From assembly GCA_964344965.1 (NCBI GenBank), contig CAYFPJ010000002.1, positions 68,623 through 132,622 on the forward strand: a stretch of DNA of 64,000 nucleotides, given 5' to 3'. Made by a program: the position numbers and the translations under genes. This document shows, piece by piece, positions 35,809-38,978 of this stretch. Source of the stretch: an uncultured Gammaproteobacteria bacterium (lineage in GTDB: Bacteria; Patescibacteriota; Patescibacteriia; Magasanikbacterales; UBA922). Numbering within the stretch: the first letter of the stretch is position 1; every line of letters begins with the position of its first letter. Under the pieces are notes generated by a model. It worked only from the letters and a program-made list of their open reading frames with translations, ran no database searches and was not told where the DNA came from.

Positions 35809-36744
35809 TTATTTTAAATTACTTTCCAAAAACCATTTGTAAGTATCTTGTAATCCTTTTTTAAATTCGGTCTTGTATTGCCATCCTCTTTTTTCCATTT
35901 TACTGACATCGAGCATCTTCCTTGGCATACCATCTGGCTTTGATCTGTCAAAAGTTAAGTTACCTTCGAAACCAACAATCTCTTTGAGAGTGTATGCCAA
36001 TTCTTTAATTGAAATATCCACCCCAGTTCCAATATTCAAAAACTCTTTCTCACTATAATTATTCATTAACCAGTATACAGCATCTGCCAAGTCGTCAACA
36101 TAGAGGAATTCTCGACGACTGTCACCACTGCCCCAGACCACGACCTCCTCCAATTTGTTGGTCTTGGCTTCGTGCATTCTACGCATCAGTCCAGGAATAA
36201 CATGGGATGATTCCATATCGAAATTATCTCTTGGTCCATAAATATTGGTTGGCATACAAGAAATAAAAATTTGTTCGAACTGCTCATGTATTTTTTCGCA
36301 CAATTTTATTCCTGCTATTTTTGCTAGAGCATAACCTTCGTTGGTTGGTTCTAATTTTCCATTCAAAAAATACTCTTCTTTCATAGGTTGTTCAGAGTCT
36401 CTTGGATAGATACAACTAGAGGCTAAAAACAATAATTTCTTCACATTAGTAACATGCGCTCCCCAGATGACATTGTTTTGGATTTGCAAATTGTCATACA
36501 AAAATTCAGCTGGTCTTGTCATGTTTGCTTTTATGCCGCCAACTTTTGCTGCAGACAATATGACATACTCTGGTTTTTCTTTATCAAAAAATTTGTGAAC
36601 AAGATCCTGATCAGTAAGGTCAAGCTCTTTACTAGTCTTTAACAATATATTGCTGTATCCTTCCTTTTGGAATTTTTTCAAAATCGCAGATCCTACCATC
36701 CCAGTATGGCCGGCAATATAAATTTTGGCATTTTTATTTATCAT
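35809..36744 (-). CDS. fcl: GDP-4-keto-6-deoxy-hexose epimerase/reductase of the GDP-L-fucose synthase (Fcl) / GDP-L-colitose synthase (ColC) family
   Basis: Carries KIYIAGHTGMVGSAI, ILSAAKVGGIKAN and YALAKIAG (YxxxK). The protein is 311 aa and follows gmd in one operon. Confidence 0.8.
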   Translation of the reverse strand: MINKNAKIYIAGHTGMVGSAILKKFQKEGYSNILLKTSKELDLTDQDLVHKFFDKEKPEYVILSAAKVGGIKANMTRPAEFLYDNLQIQNNVIWGAHVTNVKKLLFLASSCIYPRDSEQPMKEEYFLNGKLEPTNEGYALAKIAGIKLCEKIHEQFEQIFISCMPTNIYGPRDNFDMESSHVIPGLMRRMHEAKTNKLEEVVVWGSGDSRREFLYVDDLADAVYWLMNNYSEKEFLNIGTGVDISIKELAYTLKEIVGFEGNLTFDRSKPDGMPRKMLDVSKMEKRGWQYKTEFKKGLQDTYKWFLESNLK

Positions 36745-36747
36745 ACA

Positions 36748-37926
36748 TTATTTTTCTAAAAGACTACACAACAAGTTAATATCTCCACTACTAAGTTCTG
36801 GGTTATTTGGAAAATAAAATCCATTTTTGTGAACAAAATCAGCATTCTTACAATCTGCAGAGTCATCTATATATTTTTTATAAAAAGGCTGCTTGGTCAT
36901 ATCACCAGCAATAATTGGACGAATTTCAATGTTGGCTTTTTTGAACTTATTTTTATATTTTTGAAATAGATCTAGGTCTTTACAAACAACTGGCATAGCA
37001 AAATTGGAAACAACTTCCATGTGCCCTAGTCGTAAAGATATAAAATCGTTGTTTCCTTCTGTAGCTGTTTGGAATTTTTTGAAATTGTTTTCTCGCTTCT
37101 CTACTATTTCATCCCAATATCCAAGTTGAGCATTGCCAATGAATCCATTAATTTCAGTTGGTCTGGCGTTGTAAGCCAAATCATAAAAAGTATATCTAGC
37201 AAAAAAATCATCAACTTTATTGTTGGTTCTCAGCTGTTGTTGTTTGTTTTCTGACAAATTTCTATCCCAGCCATGAGCTCTGGTAGCAAGCAACATGGTA
37301 TGAAGCTCTTCGTCATCAGTACAAATCATTCCTCCTTCGATAGTTGACATATGATGACCAACGAAAAATGAAGCTGTCGAAGCTAGACCAAAATTACCTA
37401 ACAATTTACCACTGAACTTGGAGCCCAGTGCTTCACAATTGTCTTCAATGAGTAAAATATCATTTTCTAAGCAATATTTTTCAATCTTATCCAAGTCATC
37501 ACAAAAGCCCAAAACATTGGTAATAAACAGAGCATCCAAATTTTTCTTACAATCCAATAAAGTGTTGGTCGAGATATTGAGTGTCTCTACTTCACAGTCA
37601 ATTGGAACTGGCACCAAACCAAGCTGTATCAAGGGCATGACATTGGTGGCCCAAGTAAGTGCTGAAAAGCCAACCTTATCACCTTTTTTTAATCTACCTA
37701 AGTTTAGTAAAGATTGAATCAGTACTAGATTGGCACTACTGCCACTCGTCACAAAGACGGCATACTTTCTTTCTTGTTTTTCGGCAAATGATTTTTCAAA
37801 TTTTGAACACTCCTCACTCATGCTCAATACTTTTGACTTTGTAATAAAATCAACCAATTTCTTTTTAGTCTTGTTTTCGTTATAAAAAGTTGATTTGATC
37901 AGTTTAATCATAAGGCTGATTGTCAT
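36748..37926 (-). CDS. DegT-family PLP enzyme with catalytic Lys replaced by His: candidate GDP-4-keto-6-deoxy-D-mannose 3-dehydratase (ColD-like)
   Basis: The active-site segment is ASFFVGHHMSTIEGGMICTDDEELHTMLLATRAHGWDRN. In the PseC-like paralog the same position reads SFHPVKPITTGEGG, so Lys is replaced by His, the hallmark of ColD/E1 dehydratases. Confidence 0.6.
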   Translation of the reverse strand: MTISLMIKLIKSTFYNENKTKKKLVDFITKSKVLSMSEECSKFEKSFAEKQERKYAVFVTSGSSANLVLIQSLLNLGRLKKGDKVGFSALTWATNVMPLIQLGLVPVPIDCEVETLNISTNTLLDCKKNLDALFITNVLGFCDDLDKIEKYCLENDILLIEDNCEALGSKFSGKLLGNFGLASTASFFVGHHMSTIEGGMICTDDEELHTMLLATRAHGWDRNLSENKQQQLRTNNKVDDFFARYTFYDLAYNARPTEINGFIGNAQLGYWDEIVEKRENNFKKFQTATEGNNDFISLRLGHMEVVSNFAMPVVCKDLDLFQKYKNKFKKANIEIRPIIAGDMTKQPFYKKYIDDSADCKNADFVHKNGFYFPNNPELSSGDINLLCSLLEK

Positions 37927-38978
37927 TAATCGAGATGCTTACTCGCGTCAGCACCCAATTCTGTAAATTCTGCCTCGACCATAAGACGCACAAGATCATT
38001 AAATTTAACTTTTGGAGTCCATCCCAATTTTGTCTTGGCCTTAGAAGAATCTCCTATCAGTACGTCTACCTCTGCTGGACGTAAATATCTAGGGTCAATT
38101 TCTATCAATGTTTTTCCACTTTTTTTATCAACACCTTTTTCTTCCAATCCTTCTTCTTGCCATTCAATCTCATACCCCAATAGTTTTGCAGACTCTTCTA
38201 CAAATTCCCTTACACTATGCGTCTCTCCTGTAGATATCACATAATCTTCAGGAGTATCTTGCTGGAGCATCAACCACATCGCTTCCACATAATCCTTGGC
38301 ATATCCCCAGTCTCTTTTGGCATCTAGATTACCAAGATACAATTTTTCTTGTTTGCCAAGCTTGATTTTTACCAAAGCATTGGTGATTTTTTTTGTTACA
38401 AAAGTACCTCCCCTTCTTGGAGATTCATGATTGAACAAAATTCCATTACAAACAAACATATCATAGGCCTCTCTGTAGTTGATCCCTATCCAGTGAGCAA
38501 AAACCTTAGCACAAGCATAAGGACTGCGAGGATAAAAAGGGGTTGTTTCTGTTTGGGGAGATTCCAATACTTTTCCAAACATCTCGCTAGACCCTGCTTG
38601 ATAAAATTTAGCTTTAATATTCATATCTCTCATAGCGTCAAGAAGACGTAAAGTACCAAGACCATCAGTATTAGCAGTATATTCTGGTATTTCAAAACTT
38701 ACTTTGACATGACTTTGGGCACCAAGATGATAGATCTCATCTGGTTGAATTTTTGAAATTACCCTTGAAATATTGGAGCCATCTGTCAAATCTCCATAAT
38801 GGAGAAATAGTTTGACGTTCTCTTCATGTAGATCCTGAAAAATATGATCAATACGATCGGTATTAAAGCTACTACTTCTGCGAATTATTCCGTGGACTTC
38901 ATAGTCTTTTTTCAAAAGAAATTCAGCTAAATAACTACCATCTTGACCAGTGATGCCTGTAATGAGTGCTTTTTTCAT
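37926..38978 (-). CDS. gmd: GDP-mannose 4,6-dehydratase
   Basis: Carries [19 protein letters not shown] and [10 protein letters not shown] (YxxxK). The protein is 350 aa. Confidence 0.85.

What the first reader, a model, noticed from the sequence alone, without database searches (positions are those of the whole stretch)
35809..38978. gmd - His-variant DegT dehydratase - fcl-like reductase: a GDP-L-colitose (3,6-dideoxyhexose) module
Gmd and an Fcl-family epimerase/reductase alone would give GDP-fucose. Here they flank a DegT-family protein whose Schiff-base lysine is replaced by histidine (FFVGHHMSTIEGG vs the SFHPVKPITTGEGG of the PseC paralog). That substitution is the hallmark of ColD (GDP-4-keto-6-deoxymannose 3-dehydratase). 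ColC, the colitose synthase, is an Fcl homolog. Gene order and chemistry therefore fit GDP-colitose rather than fucose or perosamine.
Basis: partly seen in the sequence, partly recalled or inferred. Interest (0 to 1): 0.6.

Follow-up and report, generated by a model that had tools for sequence, protein, structure and literature searches.

The report
Predicted GDP-colitose operon in a CPR bacterium
Three tightly packed genes in an uncultured ultra-small (Patescibacteria/CPR) bacterium very probably make the rare surface sugar colitose by the pathway already known from E. coli and Yersinia, so this is a sound annotation of a known pathway in a new host, not a new mechanism.

Summary
Three minus-strand genes lie exactly at 35809-38978: gmd, a DegT-family protein, and an Fcl-family reductase.

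- **Dehydratase:** His191 replaces the Schiff-base lysine. It aligns with His188 of E. coli ColD and with Lys180 of the window's own PseC paralog. The protein lacks the four-cysteine Fe-S motif of the CDP-type dehydratase E1. Its best solved relative is ColD, at only 36% identity. It belongs to a large, distinct, mostly CPR clade (bootstrap 100) that is usually linked to gmd.
- **Reductase:** By raw identity it is closer to E. coli Fcl (52%) than to E. coli ColC (41%). Four other results point to a ColC-type enzyme. All of its close relatives sit next to a ColD-like gene. It falls outside the clade of plain gmd-fcl proteins in 68% of bootstraps. A leave-clade-out profile test puts it on the ColC side. 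It matches E. coli ColC at 7 of 7 discriminating positions, where Fcl matches 0 of 7.
- **Alternatives:** No heptose-pathway or CDP-glucose-pathway genes were found. manB and manC are also absent from the window.

GDP-L-colitose is the best-supported product (about 0.7). This is a new member of a known kind, of modest interest. No activity or sugar has been measured.

The parts
37926..38978 (-). [quoted passage not shown]
   Evidence: TIGR01472 equivalog 583.6 bits against a cutoff of 415. PF16363 520 bits. 59.7% identical to E. coli Gmd.
36748..37926 (-). ColD-like PMP/PLP-dependent sugar 3-dehydratase (392 aa), the predicted GDP-4-keto-6-deoxy-D-mannose 3-dehydratase
   Evidence: PF01041 195 bits. 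Best solved relative is E. coli O55 ColD 2gms at 213 bits, against 145 for E1 and 80 or less for aminotransferases. 35.7% identical to ColD. The EDNCE motif is identical to ColD. The E1 Cys-rich Fe-S insert is absent. It belongs to a clade of 61 sequences with bootstrap 100.
37354..37356 (-). CAT codon of His191, the catalytic histidine that replaces the Schiff-base lysine
   Evidence: Aligns with ColD His188 and with Lys180 of the window's PseC paralog. All 82 close homologs have His and all 25 distant DegT paralogs have Lys.
35809..36744 (-). ColC-type member of the Fcl family (311 aa), the predicted GDP-L-colitose synthase (C5 epimerase / C4 reductase)
   Evidence: NF047922 459 bits, below the cutoff of 500. 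The catalytic Ser/Cys/Tyr/Lys/His residues are conserved. It sits in a clade whose members all neighbour a ColD-like gene. The leave-clade-out HMM difference is +8.1 bits. It carries 7 of 7 ColC-type signature residues.
34768..35799 (-). GT4 glycosyltransferase 9 nt downstream of the fcl-like gene, a candidate transferase for the product (inference only)
   Evidence: PF00534 55 bits. It is in the same tight block, which ends at a 128-nt gap holding a 12/12 consensus promoter for the next unit. It is not conserved next to the triad in related loci.
38982..39764 (-). 260-aa ORF of unknown family 3 nt upstream of gmd, the first gene of the tight block
   Evidence: No Pfam or NCBIfam hit. A 45% identical homolog lies upstream of gmd in L046.

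Best explanation
The three genes form a translationally coupled operon that converts GDP-D-mannose into GDP-L-colitose (3,6-dideoxy-L-xylo-hexose, that is 3-deoxy-L-fucose) by the route known from E. coli O55 and Yersinia pseudotuberculosis.

Step 1: Gmd oxidises and dehydrates GDP-mannose to GDP-4-keto-6-deoxy-D-mannose. The enzyme assignment is shown at equivalog level.

Step 2: The His191 DegT-family enzyme forms a Schiff base between PMP and the C4 keto group. His191 acts as the acid/base that expels the 3-OH. The enamine is hydrolysed to GDP-4-keto-3,6-dideoxy-D-mannose, and PMP is regenerated from glutamate without an Fe-S cluster or E3 reductase. This is inferred from the His, the missing Cys motif, ColD as best relative, and linkage to gmd.

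Step 3: The Fcl-family enzyme epimerises C5 using the conserved Cys111/His181 pair and reduces C4 with NAD(P)H through Ser109/Tyr138/Lys142. With Fcl-family stereochemistry this gives the L-xylo product, colitose. This step is inferred.

The sugar is then presumably transferred by one of the many neighbouring glycosyltransferases onto a surface glycoconjugate of a Patescibacteria (Magasanikbacteria-like) cell.
For: - Gene identities and the His substitution.
- No E1-type cysteine motif: E1 reads [17 protein letters not shown], the window reads RAHGWDRNLSEN and ColD reads RAHGWTRNLPKKN. 75 of 82 His-type homologs have no Cys in that segment.
- ColD is the best solved relative: 213 bits against 145 for E1.
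- GDP context: gmd overlaps the dehydratase start. gmd lies within 2.5 kb in 27 of 48 clade members that have adequate flanks. Gmm-like and ManC genes lie next to many clade members.
- ColC-type reductase: the eight closest relatives all neighbour a ColD-like gene. In loci fetched without regard to ColD, the counts are 8 ColD-associated and 0 plain in the window's group, against 2 and 25 in the plain-Fcl group, p = 1.9e-6. The HMM difference is +8.1 bits, like E. coli ColC at +6.7 and unlike Fcl at -56.5. The signature is MMGRSLK in the window, IMGRSLK in E. coli ColC and NTPMPIT in E. coli Fcl; plain Fcl match 0-2 of 7.
- Pathway definition: PMC8987622, PMC5399914, PMC7685785.
Against: - The dehydratase is only 36% identical to characterised ColD. 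It sits in a separate clade, not sister to classical ColD, and no member of that clade has been characterised.
- The reductase is closer in overall identity to E. coli Fcl than to ColC (52% against 41%). Its separation from Fcl in the NJ tree has only moderate support (68%), and the HMM margin is small (8 bits).
- The signature positions were chosen on a set that included the window's clade.
- manB and manC are not in the 64-kb window, so the GDP-mannose supply is unverified.
- No enzyme activity or sugar composition is known.
Confidence: 0.7

Rival explanations
1. The module is mainly a GDP-L-fucose pathway (Gmd + a genuine Fcl). The His-type enzyme diverts only part of the 4-keto intermediate, or serves another pathway. 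Alternatively the Fcl-like enzyme is bifunctional, and both GDP-fucose and GDP-colitose are made.
For: - The third protein is 52% identical to E. coli Fcl and 41% to ColC.
- Its best solved relatives are all GDP-fucose synthases.
- It keeps every catalytic residue needed for 3,5-epimerisation.
- Relatives at 55-61% identity sit in plain gmd-fcl pairs.
- Two Fcl proteins of the plain clade (L087, L099) also neighbour ColD-like genes, so ordinary Fcl may work with ColD.
- No second fcl gene is seen in the window.
Against: - It scores below the curated Fcl cutoff (459 against 500).
- It has 0 of 7 Fcl-type residues at the discriminating positions, against 7 of 7 ColC-type.
- The closest relatives are always found with a ColD-like gene.
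- The dehydratase gene is inserted between gmd and fcl with translational coupling.
Confidence: 0.15
2. The pathway makes a different GDP-3,6-dideoxy sugar. This would be another C4/C5 stereoisomer, or a 3,6-dideoxy-heptose as in Campylobacter jejuni HS:5 and HS:11, where ColD homologs act on GDP-heptose.
For: - C. jejuni C3-dehydratases that act on GDP-6-deoxy-4-keto-heptose are 62-67% identical to ColD, and the product's stereochemistry is set by the reductase (PMC10440746).
- The window's dehydratase clade is uncharacterised.
- In other loci the same clade pairs with a different Fcl-family SDR.
- A few loci (L060, L080) have GmhA nearby.
Against: - The 4,6-dehydratase scores as a Gmd equivalog.
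- There is no GmhA or other heptose-activation gene in 64 kb.
- There is no separate cupin epimerase plus reductase as in C. jejuni; a single Fcl-type bifunctional enzyme with the ColC signature is present instead.
- Characterised Fcl and ColC enzymes give the L-galacto/L-xylo configuration (general knowledge).
Confidence: 0.08
3. The DegT-family protein is an E1-type CDP-6-deoxy-4-hexulose 3-dehydrase, as JGI names many clade members, or an aminotransferase such as perosamine synthase, as generic 'DegT aminotransferase' names imply.
For: Source names are 'CDP-6-deoxy-D-xylo-4-hexulose-3-dehydrase', 'E1' and 'DegT/DnrJ/EryC1/StrS family aminotransferase'. The best NCBIfam hit is RfbH.
Against: - The RfbH score of 204 is far below the cutoff of 423, and genuine E. 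coli ColD gives the same pattern (263 bits).
- The four-Cys Fe-S motif is absent.
- Among the window proteins scanned, none reached the cutoff for CDP-glucose 4,6-dehydratase, and no E3-like gene was seen.
- The catalytic position is His, not Lys.
- The gene is linked to gmd.
Confidence: 0.03

Closest known systems
GDP-L-colitose pathway of E. coli O55/O111 and Yersinia pseudotuberculosis O:6/O:7/O:10: Gmd, ColD (ColA/WbdK), ColC (ColB/WbdJ)
   Same: - The same three enzyme families are present.
- His replaces Lys at the ColD His188 position.
- There is no Fe-S motif, and the EDNCE and RAHGW(D/T)RNL motifs are shared with ColD.
- The reductase shares the 7-residue ColC signature and the catalytic Ser/Cys/Tyr/Lys/His residues.
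- The genes are adjacent to gmd.
   Different: - The dehydratase is only 36% identical to ColD, and the reductase 41% identical to ColC.
- The dehydratase lies in a separate, mostly CPR clade (bootstrap 100).
- The gene order is gmd-colD-colC, whereas in O55 colC-colD lie apart from gmd, beyond gnd.
- manB, manC and gmm are not in the window.
- The host is a Patescibacteria bacterium; as far as I know this group lacks LPS, so the acceptor is not a classical O-antigen.
GDP-L-fucose synthase Fcl/WcaG/GMER (E. coli 1e6u)
   Same: It is the best solved-structure match to the third protein (352 bits, 52% identity). The catalytic residues S107, C109, Y136, K140 and H179 are identical.
   Different: The window protein scores below the curated Fcl cutoff. 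It differs from Fcl at all seven positions that separate ColD-associated from plain gmd-fcl proteins: N73M, T280M, P135G, M208R, P207S, I80L and T128K.
E1 (DdhC/RfbH/AscC), the CDP-6-deoxy-L-threo-D-glycero-4-hexulose 3-dehydrase of the CDP-3,6-dideoxyhexose pathways
   Same: The same fold, and the same His-for-Lys substitution with C3-deoxygenation chemistry.
   Different: E1 carries a [2Fe-2S] cluster on a four-Cys insert, needs the reductase E3, and acts on CDP-sugars. The window protein lacks the insert and is linked to gmd.
Campylobacter jejuni HS:5/HS:11 GDP-3,6-dideoxy-heptose pathway (PMC10440746)
   Same: A Gmd-like 4,6-dehydratase is followed by a ColD-family C3-dehydratase acting on a GDP-sugar.
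   Different: C. jejuni uses GDP-heptose and separate epimerase and C4-reductase enzymes. Its dehydratases are 62-67% identical to ColD. The window has no heptose genes and has a single Fcl-type enzyme.

Membership tests
[quoted passage not shown] | Fold-type I DegT/DnrJ/EryC1 sugar aminotransferase-like protein | tested here: met
   PF01041 195 bits over residues 18-387.
[quoted passage not shown] | Catalytic His in place of the Schiff-base Lys (His188 in E. coli ColD) | tested here: met
   His191 aligns with His188 by HMMER and MAFFT, and with Lys180 of the window's PseC.
[quoted passage not shown] | No [2Fe-2S] four-cysteine motif (this separates ColD from E1 and SpnQ; PMC8987622) | tested here: met
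   The segment aligned to E1's [11 protein letters not shown] is RAHGWDRNLSEN, with no Cys. There are 0 Cys there in 75 of 82 His-type homologs.
[quoted passage not shown] | Acts on the Gmd product (GDP-linked substrate) | tested here: inconclusive
   Only genomic context was testable. gmd overlaps the gene's start and lies within 2.5 kb in 27 of 48 clade members. Gmm and ManC are neighbours in related loci. Substrate specificity itself was not measured.
[quoted passage not shown] | Clusters with characterised ColD sequences | tested here: inconclusive
   ColD is the best solved relative (213 bits against 145 for E1). However, identity is 36%, and the protein lies in a separate clade with bootstrap 100 that is not sister to the classical ColD clade.
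[quoted passage not shown] | PMP-dependent C3 deoxygenation with glutamate-driven cofactor regeneration | not testable with these tools
   This requires an enzyme assay.
ColC (GDP-L-colitose synthase) | Fcl-family extended SDR with the Ser/Tyr/Lys triad and the Cys/His epimerisation pair | tested here: met
   S109, C111, Y138, K142 and H181 align with E. coli Fcl S107, C109, Y136, K140 and H179.
ColC (GDP-L-colitose synthase) | Encoded together with a ColD gene | tested here: met
   There is a 3-nt spacer to the dehydratase gene. All eight closest relatives have the same partner. Fisher p = 1.9e-6 in the unbiased loci.
ColC (GDP-L-colitose synthase) | Sequence groups with ColC and not with Fcl | tested here: inconclusive
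   Against: 52% identity to Fcl and 41% to ColC. For: below the Fcl cutoff, outside the plain-Fcl clade in 68 of 100 bootstraps, HMM difference +8.1 bits, and 7 of 7 signature residues shared with E. coli ColC.
ColC (GDP-L-colitose synthase) | C5 epimerisation and C4 reduction of GDP-4-keto-3,6-dideoxy-D-mannose | not testable with these tools
   This requires an enzyme assay and NMR.
[quoted passage not shown] | Score above the curated equivalog cutoff | tested here: met
   TIGR01472 583.6 bits against a cutoff of 415.
Fcl (GDP-L-fucose synthase, NF047922 equivalog) | Score above the curated equivalog cutoff | tested here: not met
   459.3 bits against a cutoff of 500. E. coli Fcl scores 551 and E. 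coli ColC scores 304.
E1 / RfbH (CDP-type 3-dehydrase) | Four-Cys [2Fe-2S] motif and a score above the RfbH cutoff | tested here: not met
   The motif is absent. NF011936 scores 204 bits against a cutoff of 423.
GDP-perosamine synthase / sugar aminotransferases | Schiff-base Lys | tested here: not met
   The position holds His191. Perosamine synthases score 76 bits or less.
C. jejuni-type GDP-3,6-dideoxy-heptose pathway | Heptose supply genes (GmhA and others) and a separate epimerase plus C4-reductase | tested here: not met
   There is no GmhA homolog in the window by tblastn. The Pfam survey of all ORFs of 150 aa or more found no SIS or GHMP-kinase proteins.

The most novel reading that the evidence does not exclude
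The window's dehydratase represents a large, uncharacterised ColD-like subfamily. It is about 35% identical to ColD and is mis-named in databases as E1 or as a generic aminotransferase. The reading is that this subfamily is the standard C3-deoxygenase of Patescibacteria/CPR (with some hits in bins labelled archaeal). Paired with a ColC-type or a second type of Fcl-family reductase, it would place colitose and perhaps other GDP-3,6-dideoxyhexoses on the surface of ultra-small episymbionts. As far as I know these cells have no LPS, while colitose has so far been described essentially in Gram-negative O-antigens. The sugar could then act in host recognition or in evasion of phages and hosts.
Probability: 0.4. 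Interest if true: 0.5.

Novelty: new member of a known kind. Interest (0 to 1): 0.3.

Why it matters
If true, it extends colitose, a rare 3,6-dideoxy sugar known mainly from O-antigens of enteric and marine Gram-negative pathogens, to Patescibacteria/CPR bacteria, which have small genomes yet here devote more than 45 kb to surface glycans.

It also corrects a widespread mis-annotation. Thousands of clade members are named 'CDP-...-3-dehydrase E1' or 'DegT aminotransferase'.

It provides a simple 7-residue signature that separates ColC-type from Fcl-type enzymes.

Finally, it points to a cultivated organism, Minisyncoccus archaeiphilus PMX.108, that carries the same triad and in which the sugar could be looked for. 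The chemistry itself is already understood, so the gain is in annotation and distribution, not in mechanism.

Tried and rejected
- **Perosamine-synthase or aminotransferase reading:** rejected, because the catalytic position is His in three independent alignments.
- **E1 / CDP-dideoxyhexose reading (JGI names):** rejected, because there is no Cys-rich insert, the RfbH score is below cutoff, and the gene is linked to gmd.
- **Heptose version:** tblastn with E. coli GmhA found nothing in the window and hits in only 3 of about 150 loci.
- **Simple 'closest to ColC or Fcl' test by pairwise identity:** it pointed to Fcl. It proved misleading because enterobacterial ColC sits on a long branch. Context-labelled phylogeny, leave-clade-out HMMs and signature residues were used instead.
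- **Exact monophyly of a 'plain Fcl' clade:** bootstrap support was only 2%, so no clean ColC/Fcl split is claimed. A relaxed measure (68%) and association statistics are reported instead.
- **Three 'ColD-associated' labels:** these turned out to be Cys-rich neighbours, clearly E1-type in L114 and L150 and of uncertain type in L122, and were reclassified.
- **Primary ColD and E1 structure papers:** PMC2242600, PMC2533848 and PMC2782820 are not held. The roles assigned to ColD Asp159 and Glu162 rest on my memory only.
- **Name of the source contig:** it could not be recovered. Taxonomy was inferred from homologs of the ECF sigma factor.
- **Rfam and tRNA scans of the window:** both found nothing.
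- **Structure prediction:** not run, because the tool returns no coordinates and the shared fold cannot separate ColD, E1 and the aminotransferases.
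Full report
**Observation.** The stated interval holds exactly three adjacent minus-strand ORFs: 37926-38978 (350 aa), 36748-37926 (392 aa) and 35809-36744 (311 aa).
- The first is GDP-mannose 4,6-dehydratase at equivalog level (TIGR01472, 583.6 bits, cutoff 415). It is 60% identical to E. coli Gmd.
- The second is a DegT/DnrJ/EryC1 protein (PF01041, 195 bits).
- The third belongs to the GDP-fucose synthase family. It scores 459 bits on NCBI's Fcl equivalog model, whose cutoff is 500.
- The gmd stop and the DegT start overlap (TAATG). 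Three bases separate the DegT stop from the next start.
- The same gene order occurs in independent assemblies of several sequencing runs.

**The histidine.**
- HMMER aligns the first His of VGHHMSTIEGG with His188 of E. coli O55 ColD. The deposited H188N and H188K mutant chains mark that column unambiguously.
- A MAFFT alignment of 109 DegT-like ORFs from related loci gives the same result: window His191 equals ColD His188. All 82 close homologs have His, and all 25 distant paralogs (under 33% identity) have Lys.
- A gap-free BLASTP segment aligns His191 with Lys180 of the window's own PseC.

The perosamine-synthase alternative is therefore excluded.

**ColD or E1?** His-for-Lys is common to all sugar 3-dehydratases (ColD, E1, SpnQ). 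E1 and SpnQ additionally carry a four-cysteine [2Fe-2S] motif that ColD lacks (PMC8987622).
- In the alignment with E1 (3bcx), the E1 segment [21 protein letters not shown] faces RAHGWDRNLSEN in the window protein, with gaps and no cysteine. ColD reads RAHGWTRNLPKKN there.
- 75 of 82 His-type homologs have no Cys in this segment. The few Cys-rich ones are distant proteins, clearly E1-like in L022, L114 and L150.
- ColD is the best solved relative (213 bits), ahead of E1 (145) and the aminotransferases (80 or less).
- The best NCBIfam hit, RfbH, scores far below its cutoff. Genuine E. coli ColD behaves the same way.
- Identity to ColD is only 36%. In an NJ tree the window protein lies in a clade of 61 sequences (bootstrap 100), separate from the classical ColD clade (bootstrap 100). 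His-type enzymes separate from Lys-type at 82%.
- Ser187 of ColD is Gly here, but that residue is not conserved among characterised dehydratases (bioRxiv 10.1101/2021.09.04.459008).

**Substrate context.**
- Among 48 clade members with at least 2.5 kb of flank on each side, gmd lies within 2.5 kb in 27. An Fcl-type gene does so in 17, only a different SDR in 11, and none of these in 10.
- Homologs of the GDP-mannose hydrolase Gmm and of ManC occur in many of these loci.
- C. jejuni uses ColD homologs (62-67% identical to ColD) on GDP-heptoses (PMC10440746), so I looked for heptose genes. E. coli GmhA has no homolog in the window and hits only 3 of about 150 loci. The Pfam survey of all window ORFs of 150 aa or more shows no SIS or GHMP-kinase proteins.
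- ManB and ManC are also absent from the window, so the GDP-mannose supply is unverified.

**Fcl or ColC?** This was the critical point. Reference proteins came from the E. coli O55:H7 CB9615 chromosome: Fcl of the colanic acid cluster, and the adjacent 'GDP-L-fucose synthase family protein' and 'DegT' genes downstream of gnd, which I take to be ColC and ColD.
- By BLASTP the window protein is closer to Fcl (52%, 343 bits) than to ColC (41%, 250 bits). On the Fcl model it scores 459, Fcl scores 551 and ColC scores 304. All of its solved relatives are fucose synthases.
- I then fetched 80 metagenomic loci using the Fcl-like protein as the query, so the sample is unbiased with respect to ColD. 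Each Fcl homolog was labelled by whether a His-type dehydratase gene lies within 3 kb.
- The window protein falls in a tight clade with L005, L007, L009, L010, L015, L046, L077 and L078. All of these are next to a ColD-like gene. The clade lies inside a broader grade of ColD-associated proteins that includes E. coli ColC. Plain gmd-fcl pairs and E. coli Fcl form the other group.
- Bootstrap support is moderate. The window clade is recovered in 49% of replicates, and the window lies outside the smallest clade containing all plain Fcl in 68%.
- In the unbiased loci, after removing three neighbours with Cys-rich inserts, the counts are 8 ColD-associated and 0 plain in the window's group, against 2 and 25 in the other group (Fisher p = 1.9e-6).
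- I built one profile from ColD-associated sequences, excluding the window's clade and E. coli ColC, and one from plain Fcl. The window scores +8.1 bits for the ColD-associated profile and E. coli ColC +6.7. E. coli Fcl scores -56.5, and every plain Fcl scores -4 or lower in leave-one-out.
- At the seven most discriminating columns (E. coli Fcl positions 73, 280, 135, 208, 207, 80, 128) the window reads M-M-G-R-S-L-K, E. coli ColC reads I-M-G-R-S-L-K and E. coli Fcl reads N-T-P-M-P-I-T. All 25 plain Fcl match the ColC type at 0-2 positions, and most ColD-associated proteins match at 5-7.
- Two of the changes (Asn to Met/Ile, Thr to Met) replace polar residues with hydrophobic ones. That would suit a substrate lacking the 3-OH, but this is an inference, not a test.
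- The catalytic Ser, Cys, Tyr, Lys and His are conserved in all groups.

I conclude the protein is a ColC-type enzyme with probability about 0.8. Fcl-like proteins have probably been recruited to ColD more than once, since L087 and L099 are plain-type Fcl next to ColD-like genes.

**Mechanism.** Colitose is 3-deoxy-L-fucose. An Fcl-family enzyme acting with its usual stereochemistry on GDP-4-keto-3,6-dideoxy-D-mannose should therefore give GDP-L-colitose. The Gmd step is shown at the level of enzyme identity. The dehydratase and reductase steps are inferred from residues, family relationships and synteny. No step has been measured.

**Host and surroundings.**
- The ECF sigma factor at 62267-62809 has only Candidatus Magasanikbacteria and Patescibacteria among its named relatives.
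- The closest homologs of all three pathway genes are also mostly from CPR genomes, including the cultivated Minisyncoccus archaeiphilus (L010; gmd 73%, dehydratase 65%, reductase 68%).
- The module sits in a co-directional surface-glycan region of more than 45 kb. This holds pseudaminic acid genes, phosphonate genes, many GT4 enzymes, teichoic-acid-like genes and two Wzy_C-TPR proteins.
- The module belongs to a tight five-gene block, 34768-39764. Its downstream gap holds a perfect consensus promoter for the next unit.
- In the held literature, only one incidental rumen microbiome paper mentions both colitose and Patescibacteria. A predicted ColD/ColC pair has been noted in a verrucomicrobial endosymbiont (PMC8204192).

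**Verdict.** The histidine alone does not define ColD. The reductase assignment rests on context and signature residues, not on overall similarity. This is a divergent new member of a known pathway in a new host lineage. Interest is modest (0.3).

Noticed in passing
window 34669-34698 (minus strand): A perfect 12/12 sigma-70 consensus promoter (TTGACA, 18 nt, TATAAT) with a TG extended -10. It lies in the 128-nt gap upstream of a small HTH_17 (excisionase-like) gene at 34385-34639, in the middle of the glycan cluster.
   Followed up: partly
window 29126-33231 (minus strand): A fusion of a nucleotidyltransferase with a 3-dehydroquinate-synthase-like sugar-phosphate cyclase (627 aa; aroB model 265 bits, below its cutoff of 305; TIGR04425 190 bits). 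It lies next to a CDP-alcohol phosphatidyltransferase and a Glyphos_transf polymerase. This may be a nucleotide-activated cyclitol-phosphate (teichoic-acid-like) polymer pathway. Unexplained.
   Followed up: partly
window 1082-4668 (minus strand): A phosphonate biosynthesis set: PEP mutase fused to a cytidylyltransferase (TIGR02320, 405 bits, cutoff 320), a TPP-dependent decarboxylase-like protein and an Fe-alcohol dehydrogenase. This suggests a phosphonate-decorated glycan.
   Followed up: partly
window 8464-22409 (minus strand): Pseudaminic acid genes PseB (21429-22409), PseC (20329-21432) and PseI (8464-9567) all score above their NCBIfam cutoffs. There is also a second NeuB-family synthase (10949-11944) and a HisH/HisF-like pair (17827-19250). 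An IS200/Y1 transposase (17232-17732) is inserted among them.
   Followed up: partly
window 38982-39764, 39906-40892 and 56658-60515: ORFs of 260, 328 and 1285 aa have no Pfam hit; the first two also have no NCBIfam hit (the third was not scanned there). The 260-aa ORF is the first gene of the tight block that holds the colitose genes. It has a 45% identical homolog upstream of gmd in L046.
   Followed up: partly
L001, L013, L023, L025, L029, L035, L037, L040, L053, L058, L059 (SDR gene near the ColD-like gene): The same ColD-like clade is paired in these loci with a different Fcl-family SDR clade (bootstrap 99), about 35% identical to both the window protein and E. coli Fcl. It keeps the Cys/His/Tyr/Lys catalytic residues. 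It could be another ColC lineage or could give another stereoisomer.
   Followed up: partly
L060 (7238-7675) and L080 (2-565): GmhA (sedoheptulose-7-phosphate isomerase) homologs lie close to His-type ColD-like genes. These may be heptose versions of the pathway, as in Campylobacter jejuni.
   Followed up: no
Database names of homologs P0010, P0017, P0031 and others: Many members of this dehydratase clade are named 'CDP-6-deoxy-D-xylo-4-hexulose-3-dehydrase' or 'CDP-4-dehydro-6-deoxyglucose reductase, E1' by JGI, or as generic aminotransferases by NCBI. The missing Fe-S motif and the linkage to gmd indicate these names are probably wrong.
   Followed up: yes
window 51623-55844 (minus strand): Two adjacent large proteins (677 and 724 aa) combine an O-antigen-ligase/Wzy_C domain with C-terminal TPR repeats. 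A TPR-only protein (55854-56531) follows.
   Followed up: no
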